Shown here: one piece after another, positions 1 through 43,736 of the stretch
Layout of the letters: every line of letters starts with the position of its first letter
Position numbering within the stretch: the stretch's first letter is position 1
DNA from: Candidatus Norongarragalina meridionalis
GTDB lineage: Archaea > Micrarchaeota > Micrarchaeia > Norongarragalinales > Norongarragalinaceae
Assembly: GCA_902384935.1 (NCBI GenBank)
Contig: CABMDO010000009.1
Location: forward strand, 74,983-138,982
DNA length: 64,000 nt
Direction of reading: 5' to 3'
Program-made: the position numbers and the translations under genes
Notes under the pieces: generated by a model
Databases searched by the model: none
Told to the model about the DNA's origin: nothing
What the model saw: the letters and a program-made list of their open reading frames with translations, nothing else

Positions 1-529
1 GTTACAGAATAGTGAAAATCGGTGTCAGGTAGGATTGTTAGAATTCCCGACGGAGAGTTTTGGAAAGTAAATAGTAGATTTATCGTCGTGAAAAAAAGAA
101 AAACAACAAAAATAAGCCATGGTTTAAAGGAGAAAAGAGAATGATAGTTAAACGACCTATTATGAAACAATAGAAACGCAACAAACAATAAAATCAACGA
201 GGAGCAAATCACGTTCAGGGCAGAAACACCCAGAATGAAAGCCAAAACAAAGGAAACCCAACTGGAAAAGAAAACGCCCAGTACTATGCCATAAAATAGC
301 TTATTTTCGGCAAAAAAAATGTTCGAGAGTGAAACTCCTAAAATAACTGCAGAAGCTAGAAACAAAAGTGCTAAGAACACTAGGGAAAGTAGATTTTTAA
401 GTTTAAATTAGCTAGTATTTTACATTGAAATGCGTTTTTAGACATACGAAGCACAAAAGCATACTGATTAAAAGGCGTATGCGACGAGAAACAATCCTAA
501 TGCAAAATGTGGCTAGCCAAAGACTGTTT

Positions 530-1657
530 TTAACTTCGGGACGCCCATTCGAGCGCAGAATGCCATGCCCTTCGGGCAGCAACGAATGAGGATGCGAGTG
601 AAACCGCTTCATCTTCCGAAGGCGTTATTTTCTCCGGTTTAATTGAAATAATTGCGTTGAACTCGTCTGCGAACCCCAGTTCCGCCGCAGTTTTCGAAAG
701 CGAGTGCTGCTCGTTTTTCTGCGCCAGGTAGGGAAGGAGGTATTCCTCATAAGCGACGGAAGCAGCTGTCTGGACATCGACGGGTTTTCCATCGAGCTTC
801 GCCACGACGCAGTACGCGAGCGCGGCGCCCTTGATTTCGTTTCTGAGGTTGTTCACAAGCGCGTTTTTCACGGGCGTCTTTTCGTGGAATACCAATGGCA
901 AGCGGGCGGCCGCTTCAGTTTTGTCGAGAGGGCTATAAACTGCGCCTTCGCCGAGATAGCGGGTGGCGAGAGAGCCAAACAGACCGTCTTCCAACCGGTA
1001 AGGGGAAGGAAGAAAGCAGTAGCGGCGAAGCGAATCTAACGAAACCCCGAGGTTTCCTCCGCTCGCTCTCGTGCTGGTTAGAACCTCGTTTATCTCCTTC
1101 GGCACGCCTGCAAAGAGCAATGAAAGGCGGCGCTTGCAATCCTCCGCGTCCGCGCCTTTCTGCCTTTCCCTCAGAACCGAAATCACCTGAAGCACGAGAT
1201 GCGCGGTTCCGCTCGCATGCTTCAGATATTTTCCGCAGACGATTTTCTTGCCTTCGGAGAAAAGGGTTTCGTATCTGGCGACGCAATCATTGGCAGGCAA
1301 GGTATCGTCATCAAAGAAAGCGGCGTCCGAACCGTCCTTCGCGCAAAGCAGCAGGCAAATGTTGCGGAATCCGCCGTAGCCGCCTGAAAAGAGGGAGGCA
1401 TAGGAGGAGGATGAAAGGGATGTCTCGGTTGCATGAAGCGCGTCAAGTTTGAGACGCGCAATGGTTGCTTCATTCTCCTCGTGTGTTTTTTCCGTGTCCA
1501 CGACTACGAAGCGCTTCGTCTGCGCCGAATAAGCAGTAAGGCACTTCTCCAGCTTCTCGGAGTCGTTGGAAATCACGCAAGCCCTGAGCACGAAGGGATT
1601 ATGCCCCCTTTTGTTTTTAAGAGGACATTTTTGCACTTTTCCGGAGCGCGAAGCCAA
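530..1657 (-). CDS. hypothetical protein, possible GT-A fold (family 2-like) glycosyltransferase
   Basis: 375-aa ORF. Motif GGFRNICLLLCAKDGSDAAFFDDDTLP resembles the GT2 ARN-G...A-G...fLDaDD block. An upstream VVVDTEKTHEEN segment is present. No other recognisable domain. Confidence 0.35.
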   Translation of the reverse strand: MASRSGKVQKCPLKNKRGHNPFVLRACVISNDSEKLEKCLTAYSAQTKRFVVVDTEKTHEENEATIARLKLDALHATETSLSSSSYASLFSGGYGGFRNICLLLCAKDGSDAAFFDDDTLPANDCVARYETLFSEGKKIVCGKYLKHASGTAHLVLQVISVLRERQKGADAEDCKRRLSLLFAGVPKEINEVLTSTRASGGNLGVSLDSLRRYCFLPSPYRLEDGLFGSLATRYLGEGAVYSPLDKTEAAARLPLVFHEKTPVKNALVNNLRNEIKGAALAYCVVAKLDGKPVDVQTAASVAYEEYLLPYLAQKNEQHSLSKTAAELGFADEFNAIISIKPEKITPSEDEAVSLASSFVAARRAWHSALEWASRS

Positions 1658-4729: not shown

Positions 4730-4908
4730 GACATCACCTTGTCGCGGCGGAAGTAGCGCACGAGAAGCGCGAGCCCCACCGCGATGAGCAGGAGCGCGAA
4801 CCACGGGAAATCGATGCGCGGAATCCAACCCATCTGCTTCCCTATTTCAAGCACGCCCCACGCGATGAAAAGTATCGCGACGAACAGCATGAACGTTCCG
4901 CGTGCCAT
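4720..4908 (-). CDS. small membrane protein
   Basis: 62 aa with two hydrophobic helices. Stop/start coupled to the neighbouring membrane ORFs. Confidence 0.4.
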   Translation of the reverse strand: MARGTFMLFVAILFIAWGVLEIGKQMGWIPRIDFPWFALLLIAVGLALLVRYFRRDKVMSWC

Positions 4909-4909
4909 T

Positions 4910-5356
4910 TTACCGCCTCCTCTTTGCTTTCGACGGACGCGCCGCGGCGAAACCCGCCACGCCGCACGCCGCAGCTACGCCTACAAAGGCAATCATGAGC
5001 TGGAAAATCGCGTATTCCGCGGATGCGCCGGGAAGCGCGAGCGCGTTGAAGCGCGAGTATCCTATTTTCCCCAGAACCGCCGAGGAAATCGGGTGCGCAA
5101 TCACGCAGGCGAGCCCGCCGAACACCAGCGTCATTCCCGCCGAAAACAGCCCGAAGGTTATCGCGTCCCCGGAACGCTTCGCCTCGACGTAAGCGAGCGC
5201 GGCGAGAATCGCGACGACAACGGCGCCCTCCGCCGCGAGGAAATAAAGCGCGGTGCGTCCGTATCCCTCGGTATAAACCACGTAGAGCATGAGCAGCGAC
5301 GCGAACCAGCCCGCAGCCTGAACCATCGCCGAAGCGGCGAGAAGCTTGTTGTCCAT
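4910..5356 (-). CDS. membrane protein (4 TM), hypothetical
   Basis: 148 aa, strongly hydrophobic. First gene of a three-ORF membrane operon. Confidence 0.45.
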   Translation of the reverse strand: MDNKLLAASAMVQAAGWFASLLMLYVVYTEGYGRTALYFLAAEGAVVVAILAALAYVEAKRSGDAITFGLFSAGMTLVFGGLACVIAHPISSAVLGKIGYSRFNALALPGASAEYAIFQLMIAFVGVAAACGVAGFAAARPSKAKRRR

Positions 5357-5405
5357 GAAAGTGTTTGGGTGAAAGAATTTTTAAACGCCGCGCACTAGGC
5401 TTTGC

Positions 5406-5849
5406 ATGGAAAAAAGGCTATACCGTTCGAAGAAGGACAGGATTCTTGGCGGGGTGTGCGGCGGAATCGCGGAGTATTTCGAAGTGGACCCAACGCTCGT
5501 GCGGCTGCTCTGGGTGCTGTTCGTGCTCGCAGGCGGCGCGGGAGTAATCGCGTACATAATCGCGTGGATAATAATGCCGCCGAATCCGAAGCAGAAAGGA
5601 GTCGACGAGGACTTCTCGCGCGCCGCGGAACGCCTCGGAAAAAGGATGGAACGCAGGAAAGAACGCGAAGAAGACGGCAAACACGGCCTGCTGATAGGCG
5701 GAATCATAGTTCTCGGCATCGGGCTCGTGTTTCTCGCGTCTAACTACGGCTGGTTCCCGGGATGGTGGAGCTGGGACAAGATGTGGCCGGTTATGCTGAT
5801 ACTCGTGGGCGTCGGGCTGCTTGCCGGATGGGTGGCGAAGCGTGACTAA
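5406..5849 (+). CDS. PspC domain protein
   Basis: N-terminal RSKKDRILGGVCGGIAEYFEVDPTLVRL is the canonical PspC domain. Followed by TM segments. Confidence 0.75.
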   Translation: MEKRLYRSKKDRILGGVCGGIAEYFEVDPTLVRLLWVLFVLAGGAGVIAYIIAWIIMPPNPKQKGVDEDFSRAAERLGKRMERRKEREEDGKHGLLIGGIIVLGIGLVFLASNYGWFPGWWSWDKMWPVMLILVGVGLLAGWVAKRD

Positions 5850-5862
5850 AATTACCAAAAGC

Positions 5863-6048
5863 ATGACGCTCGGCGACGTGGTGTCGCGCTATCCGAACGC
5901 CACGGGAGTTATGCTCAAACACGGCCTGCACTGCGCGGGCTGCCCCGGCGCAATGATGGAAACAGTCGAGATGGGCGCGGTTGCGCACGGCATGACCGCG
6001 GCGCAGCTGGCGAAGATGCTCAGGGAAATGAACGACGCCGAGAAGTGA
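5863..6048 (+). CDS. DUF1858 / hybrid-cluster-protein-associated redox disulfide domain protein
   Basis: MTLGDVVSRYPNATGVMLKHGLHCAGCPG matches the small CxxC DUF1858 family. Confidence 0.55.
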   Translation: MTLGDVVSRYPNATGVMLKHGLHCAGCPGAMMETVEMGAVAHGMTAAQLAKMLREMNDAEK

Positions 6049-6087
6049 AGGCGCTGTTTTTTAAGAGGAAACGCGCAGGATAAGTGT

Positions 6088-7803
6088 ATGGCAGCGCGCA
6101 TCAAATACGGCGGAAGCAGCCAGCGTGATCGCAGACTTATACGATACGGCGTTGATCTCGGCAGAAAGATAGCCGTGCGAAGGTTAATCGAACCGTCGCC
6201 AGCGCACATACTTTCGCTGGACTCGCAGGGAAGGATAATCGCCGCTTCCAAAAAGGCGGCGGAGCTTTTCGGCAGGGACTCCGCCAAACAACTCGAGGGT
6301 TTGCATTACACCGAACTTTTCCCGCACAGCCGCGACGAGCTTCTCACCGAGAGACACATCGGCGACAAGGACGGCTCCTCCACGAACTCGCTTCTCGTGA
6401 AGCGCAATTCCCCAGAAGGGCTCGTCGAATCGTACGTCCGAGTGAAACGGAACGGAAACGTTTTCAATTTGGCGTTAACCGACGTGGCGGACATGGTGAA
6501 GAGGAACCAGCTAATCACGGACATTTTCGGAATAAACAGGAAGATTAACACGGAAACGGATCTCGGCAAGGTCTTCGACGCCATAGCCCAGCATGCGGCG
6601 ACACACTTCGGGGTGCGCGCGGTTGTTACGAGATTCGACGGGGAAAAACTTGTCCCGTACGCCACGGCGGGGCCTGAGGAAACCGGAACCGGACCGATTC
6701 GGCTTTCCGACTTGGTGAAGAAGGGGCCGATACCGCTCGGCGAGGGAGTGATGGGCAGGGCTGCCGCGGAAGGAAAAACCGCCCGCGTCGAAGACGCCGA
6801 CGGCTACACCGGCGCCATCTTCCCGGGGATAGAAGACGAATACAATCTCGGCAATTCCGTCGGGGTGCCCCTGTTCGCCTATAACGGCGGCGGAAAGCGC
6901 ATACTCGTAGGTGTCATAGGGCTGTTCAAGGAAGTCGGCCAGGAAAAATTCCACGATTACCAGCTCGACCTCATGGACCACATAGCGGACAACGCGGCGA
7001 TAAAGATACGCAACGCCCAGCTGAACAAGAAGCTCGAGGAGATGGCTTACACCAACCCCGTCACGGGACTTTCCAACAGGAGGCGCTTCTTCGAGGAGCT
7101 GTCCAAGCATCTGGGCGTGGAGAGCATGGATACTGACGCGGCGAAACTGACGGAAAGAATCGGCACGGCGGGCATTCAACCGTTCACCGTCGTAAAGTTC
7201 GACGTGACGAACCTGCACGGCGCAAACGAGATAATCGGACACGACGCGGCGGACGTCCTGCTGAGGGACGTAATGGGCAAAACGCTGAGCAGCGTTTTCG
7301 GGCGGATGGGGCTCGGCAGGAAGGACGCGGTTTTGGCGCACGTCTACGGGGATGAATTCAACCTTTTGTTAAGAAATGCCGACGCGCACGTTGCCGAGGA
7401 ATTCGGAAAAACCGTGCGTGACGAGGTGGAAAGGCGCATATCCGAACAGTATCCAAAACTGAAGGATGCAGGAGTGGGAATCGACTACGCTCAAACAACT
7501 TACAATTACGCTGGCGCGAAGAACACCCCGAATGCGGTCAATCTCCTGCGATTCAAGCAACTGATAAGCGCGTACTCCAGAAAGGGCAGGCTGAAAACCA
7601 TCGGGCTCAGCGCGGGAGACGTCGTCGACATCTTGCTCAGGTATCCGGAGATACCGCTCGGAAAGGGAAAAGCGGAACGGAAAACCGCAGGCGGATGGTG
7701 GCCGCCGGGGGCTGCCCAGGAACTCGTCCGGCTCATCACGGAAGGCAAGTCTTCCAAGAACGCCATAGAAGAAATCGTAAAAAAATACCACATCAGGCGC
7801 TAG
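6088..7803 (+). CDS. PAS-GAF-GGDEF domain signalling protein with degenerate YGDEF motif
   Basis: The C-terminal ~170 aa match GGDEF: NPVTGLSNRRRFFEEL, FDVTNLHGANEIIGHDAADVLLRDV, VYGDEFNLLL, GVGIDYA. N-terminal PAS-like and GAF-like regions. Confidence 0.65.
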   Translation: MAARIKYGGSSQRDRRLIRYGVDLGRKIAVRRLIEPSPAHILSLDSQGRIIAASKKAAELFGRDSAKQLEGLHYTELFPHSRDELLTERHIGDKDGSSTNSLLVKRNSPEGLVESYVRVKRNGNVFNLALTDVADMVKRNQLITDIFGINRKINTETDLGKVFDAIAQHAATHFGVRAVVTRFDGEKLVPYATAGPEETGTGPIRLSDLVKKGPIPLGEGVMGRAAAEGKTARVEDADGYTGAIFPGIEDEYNLGNSVGVPLFAYNGGGKRILVGVIGLFKEVGQEKFHDYQLDLMDHIADNAAIKIRNAQLNKKLEEMAYTNPVTGLSNRRRFFEELSKHLGVESMDTDAAKLTERIGTAGIQPFTVVKFDVTNLHGANEIIGHDAADVLLRDVMGKTLSSVFGRMGLGRKDAVLAHVYGDEFNLLLRNADAHVAEEFGKTVRDEVERRISEQYPKLKDAGVGIDYAQTTYNYAGAKNTPNAVNLLRFKQLISAYSRKGRLKTIGLSAGDVVDILLRYPEIPLGKGKAERKTAGGWWPPGAAQELVRLITEGKSSKNAIEEIVKKYHIRR

Positions 7804-8270
7804 TGCACCGCCCTGTCGGCACTGACTTTTCGTTTGACTTTCCACGTCTCAACGAGTGAAACCCATTCCGCGCCTATATGCTTGAACGCCTCGCCGAATT
7901 TCGTAGAAAGCGTCAGCCGCATGCCGTGGCGCTTGTCCTTGTCGTCCTGTCCAGTCGGGTTTTCCCTCTCGCGGGAAAGCAATCCGACGCGCACGAGCTT
8001 CGGAATAACGAGGTTACGGAGCGTGGAATTCGGAATCTTGTGCTCCGCCTGCCACGCCGCAATTGCGTCGCCGTCCGCCTCCCCTTTCTCGGAAAGGAAG
8101 CGGATGAATTTGCATGCTATCTCGTACTGCGCAGCTTGCGCCTGTGGCGGGAATATCAGCTTCAGGACGTCTTCGGCTTCCCAGCGGGCGCTAACCGGCA
8201 TCGGGAGCGCCGAATACTCGAACCACAGCGACTTTTTCGACGGAATTCCACGAGAGGCGGGTTCAGGCAT
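7800..8270 (-). CDS. hypothetical protein, probable winged-helix
   Basis: Protein-like C-terminal 156 aa starting at MPEPASRG. The upstream part of the listed 264-aa ORF runs through a repeat-rich non-coding region and is probably not translated. Confidence 0.4.
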   Translation of the reverse strand: MPEPASRGIPSKKSLWFEYSALPMPVSARWEAEDVLKLIFPPQAQAAQYEIACKFIRFLSEKGEADGDAIAAWQAEHKIPNSTLRNLVIPKLVRVGLLSRERENPTGQDDKDKRHGMRLTLSTKFGEAFKHIGAEWVSLVETWKVKRKVSADRAVH

Positions 8271-9900
8271 GAACACATCATTATGGTGTAATATAAAAAG
8301 TTTGATGGGCGCGCCTTCCAGTGCTGGGTTGCGGTATAACGCAGGAAAGGAGGCGGCGCTTCTGGGAGATAATAAGTTCATACTTGTAAGAACCAAAATA
8401 GCCGAATAGGCAGGAAAACGGGCGAAAAACGGGAATACTGCCTCGTTCAGAAGGCTCCGGATGCCAAGGAATCGTACTTTTTTGAAAGAATAGGCAGGTT
8501 CTAGGTATTTTCGCAGGAAATAGGCATGTTTTTTGCAGGGCGTTCTGGAAAGCCCTGCTGAAACCGAGCGGAAAAGCACACTTCCGTTATTCATATCATA
8601 ATGGTGTGCGGTAACTAAAAATATGGCAAAAAAGCATGGTTGAAAGCGGTGCCGCTAAACGCGCACTCATAAAAAACGCGCTAAATAGCATTACGGTGTG
8701 TTGTGTTTTCGCTGAAAACGCCTTCAAAACAGCGCAGCGGTGTCACGCGATGCCGAAAATGCCTCTAAAGCGATACTTTCGGCACAAAGCAGGGCTTACC
8801 CCGGCTCAAGTGGCGCATTTTAGTGGCTGAATAACGCTACAATGTAACATAGGCATGTTGAGGCACTTGAGGACACCCCATTACGTTACACCATAAGGGA
8901 ATTTTGAAAAAGAGGTTTTATCATAATGGTATTTTTGGTTTGGAGTGATTTCGCAGCGTAAAAAAGGGGCGGTTTTCTCGAGGGTAATGGCCGCCTTGGA
9001 TCGACGTCGTTTCTTACGGGAATAACGGTGGCGCCAGGGCCTGCTTTTTCTGCTTTTTTCTGCTCAGCCGGCAGTTCATACCTGTAAGAACTTATAGCCG
9101 CCTTTGGCGCAAATCCTTCCAGTACGCAGGAAGCCGACGGTCGTTTTTGGCTATCAGGAAGCGCACGGCATCATCCACGCTCACGAAACGCTTCATTTTC
9201 ATCTGGAGCTCCCCAGCCAGGAGCGCCAAACGCTCGTACGTATCCTTTTTCACTCTTATAACGTTCGTCATGCGATTTACCTCGGTAACTTTGTTACTTT
9301 AGTATTCCAAAAATACTATGTTACACGCTATTTTTAACCTTTTCGGCTGGTGGGAATAGCGGAAGCGGGCTGGGTTCCTGCTCGGTGGTTGAAAACCTGG
9401 CTACAGCCGACGGAGCTGGCTGTAGAGGGGGCTAAAAATTGCTAAAAATCCTGCAGGAAACCCAGAAAGCTGCCTATTCCGGCCAAAAACAAGGAAACCG
9501 CACGCATAGGGAAGGGATGCCGGAAAGTACGCGGAGGATCGCCTGCGAGACAAAAACCACTCCGTGCCTAAAAAACCGCACTTTTTCTCAAAAAATGCCT
9601 ATTCTGAGCCAAAAACATTGCATTTTCGTGAAAAACATGGCAGAACAGGACACCCAGACGAAAACCTGCCTATAACGGCTATGGAAACGCGAGTGAAACC
9701 GCCAAAATCACTGCGGAAACGCCAAAAACTGCCCAATCTCTCGCAAAAAACGCGATTTTCGGCGATTTTCTGCGTTTTATGGAAAAACCGCGTGCTTCCA
9801 GGCTCAGGGCTAGAGTTTCCGCCCGTTCGAGAGAGGCCGCTATAAAAGCGGAAACGAGTTTCAAGCCAAAAAGATGCCCCTTGGCTGAAACCTGCCTAGT
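8270..9900. repeat. repeat-dense, largely non-coding island with iteron-like motifs
   Basis: AATAGGCAG at least 3 times on + (8.40-8.53 kb) and its complement CTGCCTAT/CTGCCTAG 4 times (9.47-9.89 kb). (C)ATAATGGTGT 4 times in both orientations. Periodic (G/C)AAAAAC and GGAAACG motifs in 9.44-9.86 kb. Confidence 0.5.
9093..9272 (-). CDS. small ribbon-helix-helix (CopG/antitoxin-like) DNA-binding protein
   Basis: 59-aa ORF MTNVIRVKKDTYERLALLAGELQMKMKRFVSVDDAVRFLIAKN. An AT-rich upstream region carries palindromes GTAACTTTGTTAC and TAGTATT..AATACTA. Confidence 0.45.
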
Positions 9901-10383
9901 CCTTGCGTCAAAAGCCTGTTTTGTCTCGGTAAAATCGTAATCGAGAAGTGGTATCAAACGCAGCGCCATAGAGGTAACGAAGGCGATTTGAGAGGGCACG
10001 CGAGCTGCGCGCATGGAGTGTGCGATGTCGGACGGCATCGTCGTAAGAAGAACGATCTTGGAGGCGTATAAAAGCGCGAGCAGCCGCAAAACGATTATGC
10101 AGCCGTTGGCAAAACCTGCCCACATGCCGTACGGCCAGAACAAAACCTGGAGCGTTACGAGAAAAACCGCGAGCAGGAAAAACCATTTTCCGGGACGCAG
10201 CGCCCTCGTAAGAGGCTCGTAAGAGGCTGAAAATGCGAGTATCTCCGCCAGAATCACAAGCGCAAGCACAAACAGGTTGGTCGTGGCGAAGGCAGCCAGG
10301 GAAACGAGCAGCGCGGCGGCAAGTTTCGCCAGCGCGTTCACCCCGTGCATCGGGCTTTTCCTTTGGGAATACCTGAAAATCAA
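9679..10383 (-). CDS. ecfT: ECF transporter transmembrane T component (CbiQ family)
   Basis: 234-aa polytopic membrane protein with the EcfT/CbiQ profile. Sits in an operon with two ABC ATPases. Confidence 0.7.
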   Translation of the reverse strand: MIFRYSQRKSPMHGVNALAKLAAALLVSLAAFATTNLFVLALVILAEILAFSASYEPLTRALRPGKWFFLLAVFLVTLQVLFWPYGMWAGFANGCIIVLRLLALLYASKIVLLTTMPSDIAHSMRAARVPSQIAFVTSMALRLIPLLDYDFTETKQAFDARTRQVSAKGHLFGLKLVSAFIAASLERAETLALSLEARGFSIKRRKSPKIAFFARDWAVFGVSAVILAVSLAFP

Positions 10384-10973
10384 GTCCGTTCACTTTTTCG
10401 CGCTATACCGCAACCGCCGATTATTTTACCTCTATGGAGCCGCATGTTTTTTGCCGCAAAAGAAACCGGGTTGTGCGTCAGGAGGATAACCGAGGGAACG
10501 CGGCGCAACGCCTTTGCAATCGCCTGCCTGCCGAACAAGTCCTGGGAAGCGAACGGTTCGTCGGCTATCAAAAGCGCCGGCTCGGAAGCAAGCGCGCAGC
10601 AGAACGCCAGCCTTTTGCGTTCGCCGTAGGACAACGTTGCACAATCGCGCCGCGGGTCCAGAAGCATGCTTTCAAGCGCCCGCTTCGCCGCGGCGGTTGA
10701 AACGGCGCCCAACCCCACCTCCTCGCGGACTGTTTCCTCGAAAAGCTGATGATTGGGGTTCTGGAAGACGTAGGTGGTGCTGCTCGGAACGCGGACTGCT
10801 CCCGCGGTGGGTTTGAGGATGCCCGCCATTATTTTGCCAAGCGTGGTTTTGCCGCAGCCGTTGTCTCCGTAGACGGCGGCTATGCCTCTGCCCAGCCTGA
10901 ATGAAGCACCAGACAGCACCTCGCGATCGTCGTAGGAGAAGCGCACATCGTCAATGGAAATCTCATAATTCAT
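10380..10973 (-). CDS. ecfA: ECF transporter ATPase component
   Basis: Walker A GDNGCGKTT, ABC signature LSYGERKRL, Walker B LLIADEP. Confidence 0.8.
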   Translation of the reverse strand: MNYEISIDDVRFSYDDREVLSGASFRLGRGIAAVYGDNGCGKTTLGKIMAGILKPTAGAVRVPSSTTYVFQNPNHQLFEETVREEVGLGAVSTAAAKRALESMLLDPRRDCATLSYGERKRLAFCCALASEPALLIADEPFASQDLFGRQAIAKALRRVPSVILLTHNPVSFAAKNMRLHRGKIIGGCGIARKSERT

Positions 10974-11676
10974 TAGGGGAAATCACGCCCAAGGAATGAA
11001 GCATGCTATGGTTGCTGAGGATGCGCTTTCCTTCCGTCGCAATTCTCCCGTTTTTCAGAAAGACGACGTCGTCAGCCAACTCCTCCAGCAACTTCGTATT
11101 CTGCTCCGCGCAGACAACGGTTTTCCCGCGCTTTTTCAGCCGCGCCAAAGCCCCATACAAGTCCCTTACGCCTCTTGAATCCAGGAAAGCCGAGGGTTCG
11201 TCGAGGATGAGAATCGGAGGCTCGGCTGCAAGAATCGAGGAAAGAAGCAGGCGCTGTATTTCCCCGCCCGACAGTTCGTTGGTTAGGCGGTCGCGAAGAG
11301 GAAGCACGCCCATCATTCTCATGGCGCGAACGGCGTTGCGCTTGGGCATTCCCAGATTGTCGGTGACGAACGCCGCCTCCTCTTCGGCGGTTACGGAAAC
11401 TATCTGCGCTTCCGCATCCTGAAAAAGAACGCCGACGGAACGGGCGAGTTCGTTCAGCGGCGGCAGGGGCTTGCCGTCAAGCAGAACCGCGCCGCCAACC
11501 TGCGCATCGATCGCTTGCGGGATTACTCCCGACAACGCAAGAGCCAGCGTGCTTTTGCCGGAACCGTTGGCGCCGCATAAGCCGAGAAACGAGCCGGAAG
11601 GGATACGCAGAGTAATGCCGCGCAGGGCGCGCCTGCCGTCGGCGTAGGTTACCGAAAGTCCTTCGCATTCGAGCAT
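10963..11676 (-). CDS. ecfA: ECF transporter ATPase component
   Basis: Walker A GANGSGKST, signature LSGGEIQRL, Walker B ILILDEPSAFLD. Confidence 0.8.
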   Translation of the reverse strand: MLECEGLSVTYADGRRALRGITLRIPSGSFLGLCGANGSGKSTLALALSGVIPQAIDAQVGGAVLLDGKPLPPLNELARSVGVLFQDAEAQIVSVTAEEEAAFVTDNLGMPKRNAVRAMRMMGVLPLRDRLTNELSGGEIQRLLLSSILAAEPPILILDEPSAFLDSRGVRDLYGALARLKKRGKTVVCAEQNTKLLEELADDVVFLKNGRIATEGKRILSNHSMLHSLGVISPNEL

Positions 11677-12204
11677 TTACTTCTCCCTGAAGCGCTTGAG
11701 CCGCGAAAACAGGAGCCACGCCGCGCCGATTTCGACGACTCCGAGCACCGCGTTCAGCAGGATTATCTGCGGCACGAGCGGCGTTATCATCGACGCGGGC
11801 CAGCCCGTGAACAGCGGAATCACGTAAAGGTTCAGGCTCGCCATCGCGACGGAACGGAAAATAATCGCGGGAATGGAAATAGCGGAAACAAAGGCGACGT
11901 CGTCCGGTTTTTTACGAAGCAGGGTGAGCCCCGCGAATACGATCAGCAGCATCGGGTACGTCGCCGCGAATTTCATGAACCCTCCGAGCCATCCCGAAGA
12001 GGAGAAGAACGCGAGGAGCAGCGAAGAGGATACGGAAACGAGCGTGGCGCACCGCAAGCCGTAAAGGAACAGCGCGAGCACCCAGAGCGCTCCCATGAAA
12101 TCCAGCTGCATTCCCCACGGAACCCGGAAGAAGGGCAGGAAGTTCGCGAGGAACGAAAGCGCCGTCAGCACCGCGGAGACAGCGAGGAGTTTTGATTCGC
12201 GCAT
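11677..12204 (-). CDS. ECF transporter substrate-specific S component (possibly riboflavin, RibU-like)
   Basis: 175-aa, ~6-TM small membrane protein at the head of the ecfAA'T operon and next to the riboflavin regulator RbkR. Confidence 0.5.
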   Translation of the reverse strand: MRESKLLAVSAVLTALSFLANFLPFFRVPWGMQLDFMGALWVLALFLYGLRCATLVSVSSSLLLAFFSSSGWLGGFMKFAATYPMLLIVFAGLTLLRKKPDDVAFVSAISIPAIIFRSVAMASLNLYVIPLFTGWPASMITPLVPQIILLNAVLGVVEIGAAWLLFSRLKRFREK

Positions 12205-12256
12205 AGCGAAGAAAATGGGCGCAACTGTTTAAAAGGGGATTTCCGCTGCCGCAGGG

Positions 12257-12868
12257 CTACTTATTTTCGAGTAACTGTACGGAAACGTCGCTTCCGTTCC
12301 TGAGGCGGAGCGAGCGGCGGAGGCGAACTGGAGCGATAATCTCGAGCACGTTGTTGCCGTAGTGCGTCCGTTCGGGAAGAACGATTGCGCCGCGGGACTT
12401 GCCTCCCACCAGGCACGGCAGGAGCGCGACGCCGCCGCACTGCACTCCGCGCGTTTCGAACGGAGGAATGCGTATCCCGCCCGAAAGCGAGTGCGGAACC
12501 TCGAGCTTGATGTTGAGCGTGCCCAGATACGGCTCGTATCCGAGCAAAGAGCGTATGCGCGGCGCGTAAAGCGGCATGAACCGCGCGCCGTCGCGGAATC
12601 CCGAGAAAACGACGCCGCGGAACTCCCTGCGCGACGACGGCTTCACCGCGTAGCGCGTAAGGGTCCGCAATCCGGAAGCGGTGATGGACAGTCCCTGGCG
12701 CCCGCGCTTCAGCTGCCCGTCCTTCTCGAGCTCGCGCACCCAGCGGGACACTGTTTGTTGCGACGCGCGCACGCGCTCCGCTATCGCGGTTGTGCTCGCG
12801 CGGACAGGCGCGGCTGCCGCGCCGTTCTCCGCGAGAAATAGAAGCACGTCGAGCGGCGAGGGCTTCAC
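12257..12868 (-). CDS. RbkR: winged-helix regulator fused to archaeal CTP-dependent riboflavin kinase
   Basis: HTH part (AERVRASQQTVSRWVRELEKDGQLKR) then MJ0056-type riboflavin kinase (GTLNIKLE, GIRIPPFETRG, PERTHYGNNVLEIIAP). Probable GTG start at 12868. The remaining 5' part of the listed 420-aa ORF is an Arg-rich run-on. Confidence 0.7.
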   Translation of the reverse strand: MKPSPLDVLLFLAENGAAAAPVRASTTAIAERVRASQQTVSRWVRELEKDGQLKRGRQGLSITASGLRTLTRYAVKPSSRREFRGVVFSGFRDGARFMPLYAPRIRSLLGYEPYLGTLNIKLEVPHSLSGGIRIPPFETRGVQCGGVALLPCLVGGKSRGAIVLPERTHYGNNVLEIIAPVRLRRSLRLRNGSDVSVQLLENK

Positions 12869-12895
12869 GAGGGAATTAGGAATAGGGTTAATAAG

Positions 12896-13288
12896 TTGTT
12901 TCGCCGCCGTATTCTCATGGACGCTTTTGCCGAAAAAATGAGCAAAATAGCATCGGTGCCGACCTACAACGCGATATTCGTGAGGGAACTCGCGAGAACC
13001 ATGCCCGCGGATCTGCGCGGGCCCGCGGAGAAATATTTCCAAAAGATGATTGCCAACACGAACAGCTATCTGCGGGTCGAACACATAACCGGCGCGCTTA
13101 GGAAAAACATCACATCGGAGCCGAATTACCTGAAGCGCAGGGCGCACTCCATGATGCTCGAACATATCGAAGGCATGCCAGGCTTCCAAAGGAATGTCGA
13201 ACTCGTTGTCAGGGGCAGCGTCGCGCGCGTTCGCGCGGGGTCGGAAAAGCCGGTGCGCAGGGTCCTGGGGCTCCGCGGAAGGGCATAA
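12896..13288 (+). CDS. hypothetical protein
   Basis: 130-aa ORF with balanced, protein-like composition. Probable start MDAFAEK at 12917. No recognised domain. Confidence 0.35.
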   Translation: MFRRRILMDAFAEKMSKIASVPTYNAIFVRELARTMPADLRGPAEKYFQKMIANTNSYLRVEHITGALRKNITSEPNYLKRRAHSMMLEHIEGMPGFQRNVELVVRGSVARVRAGSEKPVRRVLGLRGRA

Positions 13289-13303
13289 TCTTATTTTCCC
13301 GCT

Positions 13304-15979
13304 TTGCGTATTCTTCGCATGCCGCAGCTGCGCCCGGAAATAGCGCGCCTCGCGAAGGCGAAGGGCATTTCCGAGGAAACGGAGATTCAGAAGAAGGCGA
13401 TTCCGCTCATACTGGAGGGCAGGGACGTGCTCTGCGTCGCGCCGACTGGTTTCGGCAAGACGGAAGCCGCGGTGCTGCCCATTCTTTCGAAACTTCTTGA
13501 CGAACACGATGCCGGACACAAGGAGGGCATCCAGGCGCTTTACATCACGCCGCTGAAGGCGCTCAACCGCGACATGATAGAGCGGCTAACGTTCTTCTGC
13601 CACATGCTGGGCGTGCGCATCGCGGTGAGGCACGGCGACACGCCCTCTTCCGAACGCGCGAAGCAACGGGACAATCCGCCGCAGTTCCTCGTCACGACGC
13701 CCGAGACGCTGCAATCGTTGCTAGTGGCGCCGAAGCTTTGCGAGTCGCTCGTCAACGTCCGTTTCGTCGTTGTCGATGAAGTGCATGAGCTCGTGGAAAG
13801 CGAGCGCGGTTTGCAGCTCTCAATCGGGATGGAGAGATTGCGCGTCAAGGCGCCTTCGTTGCAGGTCATCGGATTAAGCGCTACGGTCGGGAGCAAGGAG
13901 GAAGTCGCGCGCTTTTTGTCGCCGAAATGCGTCGTCGTCGAAAGCGGGCTCGGGCGCGAACTGCACGTAACAGTTGAGAGCCCAGTGAAAGCGAAGGGTT
14001 TCGAGGAACTCGCGTTGAGTGTCGAGAGCAGGGCGCGACTTGAACGCGTCAAGGAACTGATAGAGACGCACCGCAGGACGCTGGTTTTCGTCAACACGCG
14101 GTACCACGCGGAATCGCTCGGCTCGCTGCTCGTGGACGCGCTCGCTGAAGGCGAAGCAGCGGTTCACCATTCGTCGCTCTCGAAGGAAGCGCGCGTCGAG
14201 ACGGAGAAGGAATTCAAGGATTCCGCGGGAAAGATACGCGGCGTGGTGTGCACGAGTTCGCTCGAATTGGGAATCGACATCGGCGAAATCGATTTGGTGG
14301 TGCAGTTCGTTTCGCCGCGGCAGGCTACCCGGCTGCTGCAGCGCGTCGGGCGCAGCGGGCATCGGAAGCACCTGATACCGAAGGGCATCGTAATCGCGGG
14401 TGACGCGCTCGACTGCATCGAAGCGGGCGTCGTCGCGCGCCGAGCGAAGAAGGGATTGCTCGAACGCGAGGGAATACGCAGGAACGCGCTCGACGTCGTC
14501 GGGCACCAAATCGCGGGCTTATGCCTCGATTTCGGGAAGATGCAGGCGGCGAAGGCATACGAAATAATCACGAAGGCGATGCCGTTCAGCTCGCTCGACT
14601 ACGATGCGTTTCTGGACGTGGTGCGCAGGACTTCGGAAGCAGGCATCATTCTTTTCGACGGACACGAGATTGCTGCTTCTCGGCGCACGCGGCTTTACTA
14701 CTACGAAAACGTTTCCACAATCCGCGACAAGAAACGGTACTTCGTCAAGGACGCGAACACGCGCAAGAACGTCGGCGTGCTCGACGAGGAATTCGTGAGC
14801 GAGTATCTTCGCGAGGGCGTCTCCTTCATCGCGCGCGGCAGGGCGTGGCGGGTTATGGCGGTAGGCGAGAAAGAGCTGGTGGTTGAGCCCACCCGCGATA
14901 TAGCGGCGGCGATTCCCGAATGGGCGGGCGAGGAAATACCCGTCGCTCCGGAGGTCGCGCAGGACGTTTCGAAGGTTTTCTCAGGCGCGGAGTTGCCGGA
15001 TTTGGACGCGGACGCGCGCAAGAAAGTAACGGCGTACGTCGAGGAGCAGAAGAAATTCTTCGTTCCCGCACCGGACGCCATTCACGTCGAAATGCGCGGC
15101 GAACTGTGCGTGATACACTGCTTCGCCGGCAACAAGGCGAACGAGGCGCTCGGGCGGCTGCTGGCAGCGGTTCTTTCGCACGGTGGAGGAAGCGCGCGCG
15201 TGAAGGCAAGCGCCTACGGCGTCGAGTTGGAGTTCGGGAAGCGCCCGGAACCGTCCCGTATAAAGGCGGCGCTCGATGATCTGAAGACGAAGGACCTTGC
15301 GAAGATTCTGGAAAAAATCATTCCGAACACGCAGCTTTTCCGTTTCAAGTTCGGCGGGGTTGCGAAGGCGTTCGGCATAATCTCGAAAAAGGCGGAGTGG
15401 AGGGATTTCTCGTTAAAGCGGCTGGCTGAAACAGAAAAGGGTTCCCCTGTTTGGAGGGAAGCGCTCGAAGAAGTGCTGTGGGACAACGCATCCGCATCCG
15501 ACGCGCAGGAAGTTTTGCGTAAATCGTCAATCGTGCTGCTCAACGAAAGGGATGCCTGGTCCCCTCTTGCTAAGGAGTTCTTCGAGCTGGGTTCGTTCGG
15601 GGATTTGATTACGCCCGCGGACGCGGCGGGCTCGAAGGTTCTGGAAGGGTTCAAGGAAACGCTGATGGCGAAACGCGCGCATCTGGAATGCGGGTTCTGC
15701 AAGCGCACGTTCTGGCGCTCGCTGAAGGACGCCGAGGAGAAAATAGTGTGCCCGTACTGCGGCTCCAACCAGGTGATGATTGAGGGGCAAAAGAAGACGA
15801 TGGCAGTAGTCGCTCACTACGGACGCCGCGGGTTGCTCGCGCTGAGCACGTTCGGCGTCGGGCCGGATACGGCGGCGCGCGTGCTTCGGAAGCAGCACGA
15901 GAGCGAGGAGGCGTTGCTGCTCGATCTTCTCGAAGCGCAGCGGAACTTCATCAGGACAAGGCAATACTGGCGGATTTAA
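13304..15979 (+). CDS. lhr: Lhr-family DEAD/DEAH-box ATP-dependent helicase with C-terminal zinc ribbon
   Basis: Walker A APTGFGKTE and DEAH box VVVDEVHEL, helicase C motifs, then a long Lhr-type C-terminal extension ending in CGFCKRTF...CPYCGS. Confidence 0.8.
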   Translation: MRILRMPQLRPEIARLAKAKGISEETEIQKKAIPLILEGRDVLCVAPTGFGKTEAAVLPILSKLLDEHDAGHKEGIQALYITPLKALNRDMIERLTFFCHMLGVRIAVRHGDTPSSERAKQRDNPPQFLVTTPETLQSLLVAPKLCESLVNVRFVVVDEVHELVESERGLQLSIGMERLRVKAPSLQVIGLSATVGSKEEVARFLSPKCVVVESGLGRELHVTVESPVKAKGFEELALSVESRARLERVKELIETHRRTLVFVNTRYHAESLGSLLVDALAEGEAAVHHSSLSKEARVETEKEFKDSAGKIRGVVCTSSLELGIDIGEIDLVVQFVSPRQATRLLQRVGRSGHRKHLIPKGIVIAGDALDCIEAGVVARRAKKGLLEREGIRRNALDVVGHQIAGLCLDFGKMQAAKAYEIITKAMPFSSLDYDAFLDVVRRTSEAGIILFDGHEIAASRRTRLYYYENVSTIRDKKRYFVKDANTRKNVGVLDEEFVSEYLREGVSFIARGRAWRVMAVGEKELVVEPTRDIAAAIPEWAGEEIPVAPEVAQDVSKVFSGAELPDLDADARKKVTAYVEEQKKFFVPAPDAIHVEMRGELCVIHCFAGNKANEALGRLLAAVLSHGGGSARVKASAYGVELEFGKRPEPSRIKAALDDLKTKDLAKILEKIIPNTQLFRFKFGGVAKAFGIISKKAEWRDFSLKRLAETEKGSPVWREALEEVLWDNASASDAQEVLRKSSIVLLNERDAWSPLAKEFFELGSFGDLITPADAAGSKVLEGFKETLMAKRAHLECGFCKRTFWRSLKDAEEKIVCPYCGSNQVMIEGQKKTMAVVAHYGRRGLLALSTFGVGPDTAARVLRKQHESEEALLLDLLEAQRNFIRTRQYWRI

Positions 15980-16004
15980 ATTTTCGGACGTTCCTGATTT
16001 TTCC

Positions 16005-17012
16005 ATGGAAGCGAGGCGGCCGTTCGGCAAAATGGAAAAAATGCTGAACAGCCCCCAGAACGCGGTAACGAATAGGGTTGCCGAGCTCATTCTTCAAAAA
16101 AGGGGCAAACCGCTTACTGAAAACCAGTCCGCGGCGCTGAAGAAAGCAATAGCCGGGATTTTCTCCGGAGCCGCGGTGCAGGCCGAGGAATTCCACAGGA
16201 AAAGCCCCGACGATTACGCCACGTTCAACCGGCACAGGAAATTCGTAATCGAGGGGGTGCGCGGCTACCTGCGCAAGAACAGCATCGCCAGTTTAGACCG
16301 CGTGCCCGCCAAGTGGGAGCTGCCGTATGCATCGCCATGGAAGCAGCCGAAGAAAAGCGGTGACGCCGCCGTCGATAAAACCGAACCCGAGGAACCCGCC
16401 AAGCACGAACTTGAGACGCTTCCGAAACCGCCCGAACGGGACGAGTCCGTTTTCCTCGAAAAGGTGCAGGAAGCCGCCGCGAAGAGGAACCCGAAACGCG
16501 TCGGAAGAACCGCGGTTACGATGGCTGCGATCGCAGCGACTGCCATCATGGGCGGAACGAAACCGGCAACCGGACACGCGACGTCGGAGAAAATCGCAAT
16601 CGCTGCCGAACTGCCGAACGCACCCGCAGAACTTCCGAAAACCGCCGTGCCTGAAAAACTTTCGATGGAAGCGCTGGCGTTCGAAGCCAAACTTTCGGGG
16701 GCGGAAACCAAAAATCTCGTGAAAACCCAGAATCCGAACATCGCACTGGCGATTTCGAAGTACAACGCCGCAACCGAGGCGCAGGACAGGGGAGACGGGG
16801 AAACCGCCAGGGCGCTCCTGATAGAAGCCCAGATACAGGCGGAAGCTGCGGCGATGGGTAGCGGTGAAGTGGCAATGAGCGAAAAGCAGGACAGGGAGTA
16901 CAGGAAAGCGCTGAACGCCGGCAAAACCGCCGAACGCCTCGGAAGGCATTATGCCATAACCGCGGCGGACCAGATGAAATCCCTGATAGCGAAAAGGCTG
17001 TCGCGGCTATAG
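16005..17012 (+). CDS. hypothetical protein with single TM segment
   Basis: 335 aa, charged with low-complexity stretches and one hydrophobic helix (TAVTMAAIAATAIMGG). No known domain. Confidence 0.4.
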   Translation: MEARRPFGKMEKMLNSPQNAVTNRVAELILQKRGKPLTENQSAALKKAIAGIFSGAAVQAEEFHRKSPDDYATFNRHRKFVIEGVRGYLRKNSIASLDRVPAKWELPYASPWKQPKKSGDAAVDKTEPEEPAKHELETLPKPPERDESVFLEKVQEAAAKRNPKRVGRTAVTMAAIAATAIMGGTKPATGHATSEKIAIAAELPNAPAELPKTAVPEKLSMEALAFEAKLSGAETKNLVKTQNPNIALAISKYNAATEAQDRGDGETARALLIEAQIQAEAAAMGSGEVAMSEKQDREYRKALNAGKTAERLGRHYAITAADQMKSLIAKRLSRL

Positions 17013-17053
17013 CGCCGCCCGCGTTGCGTGGAATTTAATAACCAGAAGTCCCC

Positions 17054-19662: not shown

Positions 19663-19806
19663 TTTTTGCGCCTCCTCGGATTGTAGGTTTCGACGAAATC
19701 GTATTCCTTCTCGTCGGGCGGCTTGGATTCGCACGCCTCGGGCTCCTTCTTGCACACGATTCGAGGTTTCCCCGCCATATAGGCGATTAGAATAACGGCG
19801 GATAAT

Positions 19807-43577: not shown

Positions 43578-43736
43578 CGTTTTTAGCTGTTTTAATACTA
43601 GTATGGTAAATTTAATAATACCAACACCATTTTTATATGAAAAATGCTGAATCGGCGGCTCGGAGTCAGCCGGGTTTTGAACGGCGTTTATAATGGCGTT
43701 CCGCCCACAATCCTTCCTCGCCTTAGGGTGAAAAAT

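What the first reader, a model, noticed from the sequence alone, without database searches (positions are those of the whole stretch)
8270..9900. Repeat-dense non-coding island with iteron-like motifs and a small RHH gene
About 1.6 kb with little convincing coding capacity. It contains:
- AATAGGCAG at least 3 times, and its reverse complement 4 times ~1 kb away.
- (C)ATAATGGTGT 4 times in both orientations.
- A run of (G/C)AAAAAC and GGAAACG motifs every 20-30 bp, some resembling archaeal mini-ORB cores (e.g. CTATGGAAACG, CACTGCGGAAACG).
- A 59-aa ribbon-helix-helix ORF with palindromic operator-like sites upstream.
This could be a replication origin or iteron region, a partitioning or regulatory site, or the decayed remnant of an integrated plasmid or virus.
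Basis: seen in the sequence. Interest (0 to 1): 0.55.

Follow-up and report, generated by a model that had tools for sequence, protein, structure and literature searches.

The report
Candidate replication origin of a Micrarchaeota chromosome
This mostly gene-free stretch carries real repeated DNA motifs, is conserved across many Micrarchaeota (tiny DPANN archaea), and in relatives sits exactly where strand composition flips, so it is most likely their so-far undescribed chromosomal replication origin.

Summary
The repeats are real and non-random, but the finding needs correcting. Positions 9679-9900 are coding (the EcfT C-terminus). The GGAAACG "mini-ORB" motif is a genome-wide heptamer, not specific to the island. 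No canonical ORB is present.

The window comes from Ca. Norongarragalina meridionalis. The same architecture recurs in at least 10 Micrarchaeota lineages:
- 4-8 copies of AATAGGCAGG on A-tract DNA with 10.25-bp phasing, in the sense orientation upstream of a small ribbon-helix-helix (RHH) gene.
- An AT-rich segment.
- The palindrome GTTCATACNNGTATGAAC at the 3' end of the RHH gene.
- A gene-free part holding ACACCATWATG boxes and antisense AATAGGCAGG copies.
- Usually a phylum-conserved winged-helix gene, whose promoter carries the same ACACCATWATG box.

In relatives with measurable strand skew, third-codon-position GC skew flips from negative to positive exactly at this locus, whatever the gene strand. 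That marks a replication origin, or less likely a terminus. The window's own genome has almost no skew, so the test is uninformative there.

No relatives of the two proteins turned up in viral contigs, and the island DNA has no match in the plasmid collection, so a decayed mobile element is unlikely.

Best reading: a non-canonical archaeal oriC with embedded regulators (confidence about 0.5). Rivals are a pure regulatory hub, a centromere-like site, and a terminus.

The parts
7800..8270 (-). Winged-helix (wHTH) gene, 156 aa, Micrarchaeota-specific and highly conserved
   Evidence: 64 homologue clusters at 56-92% identity, with no Pfam family. The AF2 model (pLDDT 84) has a wHTH plus a long C-terminal helix. 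Weak, sub-threshold Foldseek matches (best E 6e-3) are to PadR/LmrR, Lrs14/AbfR2 and MarR.
8275..8300 (-). wHTH promoter: TATA (TTTTTATATT) followed by BOX ACACCATAATGATGT just before the start codon
   Evidence: Sequence. A BOX (GTTACACCRTAAC) abuts the TATA box of the orthologous gene in L001, L007, L010, L019, L021, L025 and L035, including loci that lack the island.
8376..8393 (.). Palindrome PAL-1, GTTCATACTTGTAAGAAC
   Evidence: One of only 2 hits in the window, against 0 expected. The same palindrome is present in L005, L007, L015, L020, L022, L025, L029 and L034.
8405..8528 (+). Three AATAGGCA(G/T)G boxes (8405, 8489, 8519), antisense to the RHH gene; 84- and 30-bp spacing
   Evidence: Conserved in L007. 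Antisense copies downstream of RHH also occur in L005, L014, L032, L040 and L043.
8593..8699 (-). Two BOX copies, each followed by a TATA-like sequence: ACACCATTATGATAT at 8593-8607 and ACACCGTAATGCTAT at 8685-8699
   Evidence: Analogous BOX clusters lie downstream of RHH in L014, L032 and L040.
8729..8960 (.). Core block, 80-100% identical among three congeneric lineages. It holds one antisense box (8848-8857), BOX copies (8888-8902 on +, 8918-8932 on -), GTAAC/GTTAC half-sites and a 72% AT segment (8882-8941).
   Evidence: No ORF is conserved: a stop codon interrupts it in L007 (reading). RNAalifold z-scores reach only about -2.
9074..9091 (.). Palindrome PAL-2, GTTCATACCTGTAAGAAC, directly after the RHH stop codon
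   Evidence: The position at the 3' end of RHH is conserved in L005, L007, L010, L025 and L034.
9092..9271 (-). Ribbon-helix-helix gene, 59 aa
9272..9345 (-). RHH leader and promoter, 72% AT and about 85-93% conserved. Elements: SD GAGG, GTAAC-TTT-GTTAC (9285-9297), AGTATTCCAAAAATACT (9301-9317), TATA-like GGTTAAAAATAG (9328-9339).
   Evidence: In most island loci examined, one of the AT-richest 60-nt windows lies 40-190 nt upstream of the RHH start.
9346..9468 (.). Spacer with poor sequence conservation. The distance from the innermost box to the RHH ATG is held at about 205-240 nt across lineages.
9469..9900 (-). Array of boxes in the sense orientation to RHH (9469-9478, 9594-9603, 9665-9674, 9891-9900, plus variants at about 9565 and 9730) on phased A-tract DNA. 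The outer part overlaps the EcfT coding sequence.
   Evidence: The periodicity is the highest in the window (0/300 shuffles reach it). Box spacings are multiples of 10.25 bp (Rayleigh R = 0.61, n = 28).
9679..10383 (-). EcfT/CbiQ gene, a neighbour rather than part of the element. Its last ~220 nt carry part of the array.
   Evidence: Pfam CbiQ, E = 3.7e-21. The C-terminus ...LAFP* is conserved in L007 and L039.

Best explanation
The island is the Ca. Norongarragalina copy of a cis-acting chromosomal locus conserved in Micrarchaeota, most likely the replication origin (oriC).

Proposed mechanism:
1. Two opposed sets of a 10-bp box, AATAGGCAGG, flank a core. One set (9469-9900) is in the sense orientation to the RHH gene. 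The other (8405-8528 and 8848) is antisense.
2. The boxes sit on intrinsically curved, helically phased A-tract DNA, so they all face one side of the helix.
3. An initiator binds them and wraps the DNA. Its identity is unknown: an Orc1/Cdc6 encoded elsewhere or a lineage-specific protein.
4. The stored strain opens the AT-rich segments of the core (9282-9341 and 8882-8941).
5. The embedded RHH gene and the neighbouring wHTH gene act as local auto-regulated DNA-binding proteins. Their operators would be GTAAC-N3-GTTAC, the PAL palindrome and the ACACCATWATG BOX.

Shown here: motif enrichment, conservation of the architecture, helical phasing, the folds of both proteins, and the skew flip in relatives.
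Inferred: who binds what, the wrapping, the melting, and origin activity in this particular genome.
For: - Conserved architecture. The same order recurs in the window, L005, L007/L039, L010, L014, L020, L025, L032, L034, L040, L043, and in L021 without RHH: Lhr helicase, (ribK-ECF), sense box array, AT-rich segment, RHH, PAL, gene-free BOX part with antisense boxes, wHTH.
- Size of the gene-poor stretch. These compact genomes keep 1.2-2.7 kb of gene-poor DNA here.
- Skew flip at third codon positions, independent of gene strand. In L040 all 7 genes on the left have top-strand skew of -0.21 to -0.49, and 7 of 8 on the right have +0.06 to +0.46. In L043 it is 9/9 on the left and 8/9 on the right. 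L005 behaves likewise.
- Position of the flip. The cumulative G-C minimum lies 0.9-1.3 kb after the RHH start in L040, L043, L014, L005 and L034.
- Association with the island. 9 of 12 island loci go from negative to positive (mean change +0.136). Only 4 of 16 loci where wHTH has no RHH-bearing island do so (mean +0.017), and at least one of those four, L021, has the array architecture without RHH.
- Helical phasing. AA/TT periodicity of 10.25 bp is present in every lineage and is the top outlier of the window. Box spacings are in helical register.
- AT-rich segments. The AT-richest segments (72-85% AT) lie next to the innermost box.
- Uniqueness in the window. The boxes and PAL occur almost only here in 64 kb.
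- Literature definition. Archaeal origins are long intergenic regions with a DUE and repeated initiator sites in inverted orientation, and repeat clusters can extend into neighbouring genes (PMC1868953, PMC1904270).
Against: - No orc1/cdc6 gene lies beside the island in any locus. The nearby AAA+ protein at 25406-26563 shows no Orc1 signature.
- No canonical ORB or mini-ORB is present.
- In the window's own genome the all-site skew follows gene strand and does not flip at the island. Third-position skew is near zero genome-wide. Only a short local shift is seen: -0.166 versus +0.073 (p = 3e-8), but it reverts to +0.11 left of 4.6 kb.
- L044 shows no flip either.
- Skew polarity is not universal in archaea; haloarchaea are inverted (PMC1868953). 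A flip alone therefore cannot separate origin from terminus.
- The region between the opposed box sets is long (about 0.9-1.5 kb) and contains a gene.
- The most AT-rich parts are also promoters.
- No replication data exist for any Micrarchaeota.
Confidence: 0.5

Rival explanations
1. A regulatory hub only. The RHH and wHTH proteins auto-regulate and cross-regulate from PAL, GTAAC and BOX operators. The phased box array acts as an architectural upstream element for RHH transcription. The BOX+TATA units drive small non-coding RNAs. Any co-location with a skew flip is coincidental, or reflects an origin that is merely nearby.
For: - A BOX sits at the wHTH promoter even in loci without the island.
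- Four BOX copies in the island are followed by TATA-like sequences in the same orientation as wHTH.
- The innermost box lies at a fixed ~205-240 nt from the RHH start.
- The wHTH fold is weakly PadR/MarR/Lrs14-like, typical of dimeric regulators.
- The RHH fold is typical of repressors.
- The core block 8729-8960 is conserved without an ORF, and a weak terminator-like site lies at 8748-8732 on the minus strand.
Against: - A 0.5-1 kb phased array with opposed box sets is far more than archaeal promoters use.
- The array architecture persists in L021, where another ORF replaces RHH.
- RNA structure support is weak (z about -2, no Rfam hit).
- This reading does not explain why the skew flips exactly here in several lineages.
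Confidence: 0.2
2. A centromere-like, origin-proximal segregation site. The RHH protein acts as a centromere-binding protein, as ParG, ParR and omega do. It coats the phased box array into a wrapped partition complex.
For: - The RHH fold is supported.
- Arrays of short repeats lie upstream of the RHH gene on curved DNA, all on one helical face.
- RHH centromere-binding proteins bind repeat arrays upstream of their own operon (own knowledge of R1 parC/ParR, TP228 ParG and pSM19035 omega).
- Chromosomal partition sites cluster near origins in bacteria, which would fit the skew flip.
Against: - No ParA/ParM/TubZ-type NTPase gene is adjacent in any locus.
- Boxes are 30-360 bp apart, not contiguous iterons.
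- L021 keeps the array without RHH.
- The RHH family was detected in only 31 clusters, far fewer than wHTH.
Confidence: 0.12
3. A replication terminus or fork-trap region. The two opposed sets of polar sites would stop forks, and the adjacent winged-helix gene would play the role that RTP or Tus plays in bacteria.
For: - A skew flip marks an origin or a terminus, and the skew polarity rule is not universal in archaea (PMC1868953).
- The box sets are opposed.
- The wHTH model weakly resembles RTP among many other winged-helix proteins (rank 33-34, E = 0.086).
- In B. subtilis the rtp gene adjoins its Ter inverted repeat (own knowledge).
Against: - The sign of the flip (negative to positive) is the origin sign under the usual rule that the leading strand is G-rich (PMC1868953).
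- Known termini are not long conserved AT-rich repeat regions on curved DNA.
- In several genomes (L001, L019) the wHTH gene is not next to the island.
- No Xer recombinase gene appears among the called genes of the five gene-annotated flanks, and the PAL palindrome does not fit the dif layout as I recall it.
Confidence: 0.08
4. A decayed integrated plasmid or virus, with an iteron origin plus a CopG-like RHH gene.
For: - Small RHH genes next to repeat arrays are typical of plasmid replication and copy-control modules (own knowledge).
- GC content is lower here than in the flanks (49% versus 57-60%).
Against: - The chromosomal position and flanking synteny (Lhr, ribK, wHTH) are conserved across lineages whose proteins are only 30-65% identical.
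- No integrase, Rep protein or att-like flank was seen.
- RHH and wHTH have no relatives in 2.9 million viral contigs.
- The DNA has no plasmid match.
Confidence: 0.03

Closest known systems
Archaeal oriC of the ORB/Orc1-Cdc6 type (Pyrococcus, Sulfolobus, Haloferax)
   Same: - A long conserved intergenic region in a compact genome.
- Repeated short elements in two opposed orientations around an AT-rich part.
- A repeat cluster that reaches into a neighbouring gene, as the Pyrococcus ORB cluster does in dp1 (PMC1904270).
- A position at a strand-skew switch, seen in relatives.
   Different: - The repeat is AATAGGCAGG, with no TTCC...GGAA dyad and no G-string.
- No orc1/cdc6 gene is adjacent.
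- An RHH gene lies between the opposed sets.
- The array shows strong 10.25-bp A-tract phasing.
- The binding protein is unknown.
Bacterial oriC with DnaA boxes
   Same: - Multiple 9-10-bp boxes in both orientations and in helical register.
- An adjacent AT-rich unwinding region.
- Neighbouring auto-regulated DNA-binding genes.
   Different: This is an archaeal genome, there is no DnaA, and the box sequence is unrelated. The similarity is one of working principle only.
Plasmid centromeres bound by RHH proteins (R1 parC/ParR, TP228 ParG, pSM19035 omega)
   Same: An RHH gene preceded by an array of short repeats on bent DNA. The predicted outcome is a one-sided wrapped nucleoprotein complex.
   Different: The boxes are tens to hundreds of bp apart rather than contiguous. 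There is no partner NTPase gene. The locus is chromosomal and vertically conserved.
B. subtilis terminus (RTP with the TerI/TerII inverted repeat beside rtp)
   Same: A winged-helix dimer gene lies beside opposed polar sites at a skew switch.
   Different: The sign of the skew flip fits an origin. The locus is large, AT-rich and curved. The structural match of wHTH to RTP is no better than to generic PadR/MarR proteins.

Membership tests
Archaeal ORB/Orc1-type replication origin | ORB or mini-ORB repeats with the conserved TTCC...GGAA core (PMC1904270) | tested here: not met
   TTCCANTGGAAA with up to 2 mismatches gives 27 hits in the window and none in 8270-9900. GGAAACG occurs throughout the window.
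Archaeal ORB/Orc1-type replication origin | Location next to an orc1/cdc6 gene (PMC1868953) | tested here: not met
   No Orc1/Cdc6 domain was found in the flanking genes of the window or of relatives. The AAA+ protein 16 kb away has no Orc1 support. Not every ORF in the window was scanned.
Archaeal replication origin (generic) | Long intergenic region with an A/T-rich element flanked by repeats in inverted orientation | tested here: met
   820 + 407 nt are non-coding. Opposed box sets are present. Segments of 72% AT lie at 8882-8941 and 9282-9341 in a genome of about 57% GC.
Archaeal replication origin (generic) | Strand-composition (GC skew) switch at the locus | tested here: inconclusive
   Met in relatives L040, L043, L014, L032, L005, L034 and L010. 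Not resolvable in the window's own weak-skew genome. The polarity rule is unverified for this phylum (PMC1868953).
Archaeal replication origin (generic) | Replication actually initiates there (marker frequency, 2D gels, ARS activity) | not testable with these tools
   Read-depth profiles and cultures are not available here.
Iteron-type plasmid origin or mobile-element remnant | Rep or integrase gene, att flanks, patchy distribution, relatives on plasmids or viruses | tested here: not met
   Chromosomal synteny is conserved. There are no viral relatives and no plasmid DNA match.
RHH-type partition centromere (types Ib/II) | Adjacent partition NTPase gene (ParA, ParF or ParM) | tested here: not met
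   None appears in any gene list.
Ribbon-helix-helix superfamily (the 59-aa protein) | N-terminal beta-strand followed by two helices, with the fold matching solved RHH proteins | tested here: met
PadR/MarR/Lrs14-like winged-helix regulators (the 156-aa protein) | wHTH core plus a C-terminal dimerisation helix; membership of a sequence family | tested here: inconclusive
   The fold resembles LmrR/PadR, AbfR2 and MarR, but only at E = 6e-3 to 5e-2 and TM 0.35-0.6. No Pfam or NCBIfam hit. It behaves as a separate Micrarchaeota family.
Known RNA families (Rfam) | Covariance-model match in the gene-free parts | tested here: not met
   No match at gathering thresholds. At E up to 5 only chance-level hits appear.

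The most novel reading that the evidence does not exclude
Micrarchaeota define their chromosomal origin with a lineage-specific system instead of ORB/Orc1. Helically phased AATAGGCAGG boxes on curved DNA would be recognised by a phylum-specific small DNA-binding protein, which would nucleate unwinding. Candidates are the universally conserved wHTH family or the RHH. If so, this would be the first non-Orc1 origin-recognition module in cellular archaea.
Probability: 0.12. Interest if true: 0.85.

Novelty: new variant of a known kind. Interest (0 to 1): 0.62.

Why it matters
I found no description of a replication origin for Micrarchaeota: full-text searches on Micrarchaeota with origin, Cdc6 or GC-skew terms returned nothing relevant. 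To my knowledge the same holds for other DPANN archaea.

These are uncultured or co-cultured organisms with tiny genomes, so sequence-level markers are the only handle on their replication. A conserved, recognisable origin locus would:
- Let growth rates be read from metagenomes (peak-to-trough ratios).
- Help close and orient MAGs.
- Give concrete DNA motifs (AATAGGCAGG box, BOX, PAL) and two small proteins to test biochemically.

The lack of canonical ORB elements and of an adjacent orc1 gene also raises the question of how the origin is recognised in this phylum.

Tried and rejected
- Rfam scans, at gathering thresholds on the whole window and at E up to 5 on the island, found nothing in the island.
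- The sigma-70 promoter and terminator scan is not meaningful for archaea and gave chance-level counts.
- Exact-protein look-ups of RHH and wHTH found nothing on record.
- RNAalifold on the core block 8729-8960, with three lineages and both strands, gave z-scores of only -0.7 to -2.5. One apparent compensatory pair in a CTCAAGTG/CACTTGAG stem is not sustained in L039. This is not enough to claim an RNA.
- The ORF 8636-8830 (+) was considered as a gene and rejected. It has a frameshift and a stop in L007.
- The AAA+ protein at 25406-26563 was tested as a possible Orc1/Cdc6 by Pfam, NCBIfam, PDB sequence and profile searches, and a homologue search. No support was found.
- A strand-polarity index from skewed 6-mers turned out to be confounded by gene strand and was dropped.
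- All-site GC skew in the window tracks gene orientation and is uninformative.
- The viral-contig scan with the larger RHH alignment failed for lack of a conserved stretch. It was repeated with the smaller alignment.
- The PAL palindrome was considered as a Xer/dif site and rejected from its layout and copy number: its arms are too short and there are 2-6 copies per locus. No Xer or dif search was run.
Full report
**What is at the coordinates**

The window is archaeal: it carries an archaeal RNase P RNA at 61967. One protein (P0096) is identical to a protein of Candidatus Norongarragalina meridionalis. This is a 57.5% GC Micrarchaeota MAG, LFW-144_1, described in PMC8561730.

Gene layout around the finding:

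| Coordinates | Strand | Feature | Evidence |
|---|---|---|---|
| 7800-8270 | - | 156-aa winged-helix (wHTH) gene | |
| 8271-9091 | | no conserved ORF | |
| 9092-9271 | - | 59-aa RHH ORF | |
| 9272-9678 | | non-coding | |
| 9679-10383 | - | EcfT/CbiQ, last gene of an ECF transporter operon | |

The EcfT C-terminus (...LAFP*) is conserved as an open frame in two congeneric relatives. The last 220 nt of the flagged interval are therefore coding.

**The repeats are real**

- AATAGGCAG with up to 1 mismatch occurs 3 times on the + strand (8405, 8489, 8519) and 4 times on the - strand (9470, 9595, 9666, 9892). The window total is 20 against 8 expected.
- ATAGGCAKG has 5 of its 6 window hits in the island, against 0.32 expected.
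- The ATAATGGTGT motif is the near-palindromic 15-mer ACACCATWATGRTRT (BOX). It lies at 8275-8289, 8593-8607, 8685-8699 and 8918-8932 in one orientation, and at 8888-8902 in the other.
- An 18-bp palindrome, GTTCATACNNGTAAGAAC (PAL), occurs at 8376 and 9074 and nowhere else in 64 kb.
- The A-runs are helically phased. AA/TT periodicity of 10.25-10.5 bp exceeds all 300 dinucleotide-preserving shuffles in both non-coding parts. The island holds the 9 highest-scoring (12 of the top 15) 400-nt windows of the whole sequence: power 4.95 at 9501-9900 against a median of 0.34.

The "mini-ORB" resemblance fails. GGAAACG occurs 41 times across the window, and the 3 copies in the region are all inside EcfT. 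The ORB core TTCCANTGGAAA (PMC1904270) has no hit in the island even with 2 mismatches.

**The two proteins**

The wHTH protein has no Pfam or NCBIfam family. It has 64 homologue clusters at 56-92% identity; every cluster with a source name is annotated Micrarchaeota/Micrarchaeia. Its AF2 model (pLDDT 84) is a winged helix with a long C-terminal helix. Its nearest PDB matches, all weak (E 6e-3 or worse), are PadR/LmrR, Lrs14-type AbfR2 and MarR.

**The locus is conserved, not a remnant**

The closest relatives are L007 (CG08_land_8_20_14_0_20_59_11), L037-L039. They align over the entire island at 73-80% identity, with a mosaic of conserved and diverged blocks. The block 8729-8960 is 80-100% identical. 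That is more than the neighbouring genes, yet it has no shared ORF and only weak RNA-structure signal.

Far more distant lineages (RHH 30-50% identical) keep the same order of parts:

1. Lhr helicase, sometimes followed by ribK and an ECF transporter.
2. 4-8 boxes (A)ATAGGCAG(G), each followed by an A- or T-tract, all in the sense orientation to RHH. The innermost box lies 205-240 nt before the RHH start.
3. The AT-richest 60-180 nt of the locus.
4. The RHH gene.
5. PAL at or in its 3' end.
6. A 0.3-1.3 kb gene-free part with BOX copies and 1-4 antisense boxes. In L005 and L025 this part also holds a small membrane-protein gene.
7. The wHTH gene.

Four further points bear on the interpretation:

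- L021 keeps the array, the BOX part and the antisense box next to Lhr, but has a different small ORF where RHH would be. The cis elements are therefore the constant part.
- The 10.25-bp periodicity is significant in every lineage.
- Spacings between successive boxes across eight lineages cluster at integer multiples of 10.25 bp (Rayleigh R = 0.61, n = 28). The boxes thus face one side of curved DNA.
- A BOX (GTTACACCRTAAC) abuts the TATA box of the wHTH gene even in genomes where that gene is not next to the island: L001 and L019. The BOX is therefore probably the wHTH auto-operator.

Neither protein has relatives in the viral contig collection, and the DNA has no plasmid match.

**Strand composition in relatives**

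All loci were oriented with RHH on the top strand.

- L040: all 7 genes on the left have third-position top-strand GC skew between -0.21 and -0.49. Seven of 8 genes on the right have +0.06 to +0.46. Genes lie on both strands on both sides.
- L043: 9/9 on the left are negative and 8/9 on the right are positive.
- L005, L014, L032, L034 and L010 behave the same way. L042 does so weakly.
- The cumulative G-C minimum of the 12-20 kb loci falls 0.9-1.3 kb after the RHH start in L040, L043, L014, L005 and L034. That is inside the gene-free BOX/antisense-box part, which corresponds to window 8271-9091.
- Nine of 12 island loci flip from negative to positive (mean change +0.136). Only 4 of 16 loci where wHTH has no RHH-bearing island do so (mean +0.017), and at least one of those four, L021, has the array architecture without RHH.

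An abrupt, gene-strand-independent skew switch marks an origin or a terminus. The sign is the origin sign under the usual rule that the leading strand is G-rich, although haloarchaea are known to be inverted (PMC1868953).

**The window's own genome**

Here the test is uninformative rather than negative.

- Third-position skew is close to zero for nearly all 46 genes.
- All-site skew simply follows gene orientation and stays positive on both sides.
- Locally, genes in 4784-9271 have pos3 skew of -0.166 against +0.073 for 9679-20286 (Fisher p = 3e-8). Genes left of 4.6 kb are again positive.
- Synteny beyond wHTH is broken in this genus compared with other lineages. This is my comparison of the window's genes with the gene lists.
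- L044 is another weak-skew genome, with the same ribK-ECF neighbourhood, and it also shows no flip.

**Interpretation**

The observed features are:
- a long conserved gene-poor region in a compact genome;
- opposed sets of short boxes;
- an AT-rich core;
- strong intrinsic curvature with the boxes in helical register;
- a skew switch at the homologous site in relatives.

This combination fits a chromosomal replication origin best (confidence about 0.5). It differs from described archaeal origins in box sequence, in lacking an adjacent orc1/cdc6 gene, and in carrying an RHH gene between the box sets. No canonical Orc1 was found in the ORFs I scanned. The conserved AAA+/winged-helix protein at 25406-26563 shows no Orc1 signature.

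Which protein binds the boxes is unknown. The wrapping and melting steps are inference.

Rivals that remain open:
- a purely regulatory hub with BOX-driven small RNAs (0.2);
- an origin-proximal centromere-like site bound by the RHH protein (0.12);
- a terminus or fork trap (0.08);
- a decayed mobile element (0.03).

**Novelty**

Full-text searches found no description of an origin, GC-skew analysis or Orc1/Cdc6 for Micrarchaeota. If confirmed, this would be a new variant of the archaeal origin, and to my knowledge the first for a DPANN lineage.

Noticed in passing
window, whole 64 kb (e.g. 1994, 10300, 24946, 53127): The heptamers GGAAACG and GAAACCG (each 37:4 in favour of the + strand) and CAGGAAA (28:2) are extremely strand-biased across the whole window. 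GGAAACG keeps the bias inside minus-strand genes (11:3). This could be a polar, architecture-imparting type of oligomer, or a strong mutational asymmetry.
   Followed up: partly
window 1-530: A low-GC (44%), A-rich stretch with no assigned ORF. It has the second-highest A/T-tract density and 10-11-bp periodicity in the window. It carries none of the island's motifs.
   Followed up: no
window 25406-26563 (+), divergent from Nre at 24076-25260 (-): An AAA+ ATPase with a C-terminal winged-helix-like region, 50-60% identical across more than 120 Micrarchaeota clusters. Its domain layout resembles Orc1/Cdc6, but no family or PDB match supports that. In L001 it lies near histone, RecJ-like and OB-fold genes.
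   Followed up: partly
window 43578-43643: A divergent promoter between an ArsR-HTH/S-layer-like gene (42675-43577, -) and a glmS-like gene (43644-45512, +). It contains ACACCATTTTTATAT, a BOX-like site fused to a TATA box, so it may be another target of the wHTH protein.
   Followed up: no
L005:6853, L020:3381 and RHH homologues P0071, P0092, P0095: In other lineages the PAL palindrome lies inside the RHH coding sequence and is translated as VHT(S)MN in a C-terminal tail that ends in RREI(S/F/G). In the window the protein stops just before PAL. The DNA element is therefore kept whether or not it is translated.
   Followed up: partly
L005:6959-7225, L025:5404-5676: A conserved gene for a ~90-aa membrane protein sits between RHH and wHTH in some lineages, flanked by PAL copies in L025. 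It is absent from the window, where the conserved non-coding block 8729-8960 occupies that place.
   Followed up: partly
L005, L040, L042-L044 left flanks: A ubiquitin-like modifier gene set (ThiF/E1-like, JAB, UQ_con/E2-like, Rad60-SLD-like) is syntenic with the Lhr helicase next to the array in several Micrarchaeota.
   Followed up: no
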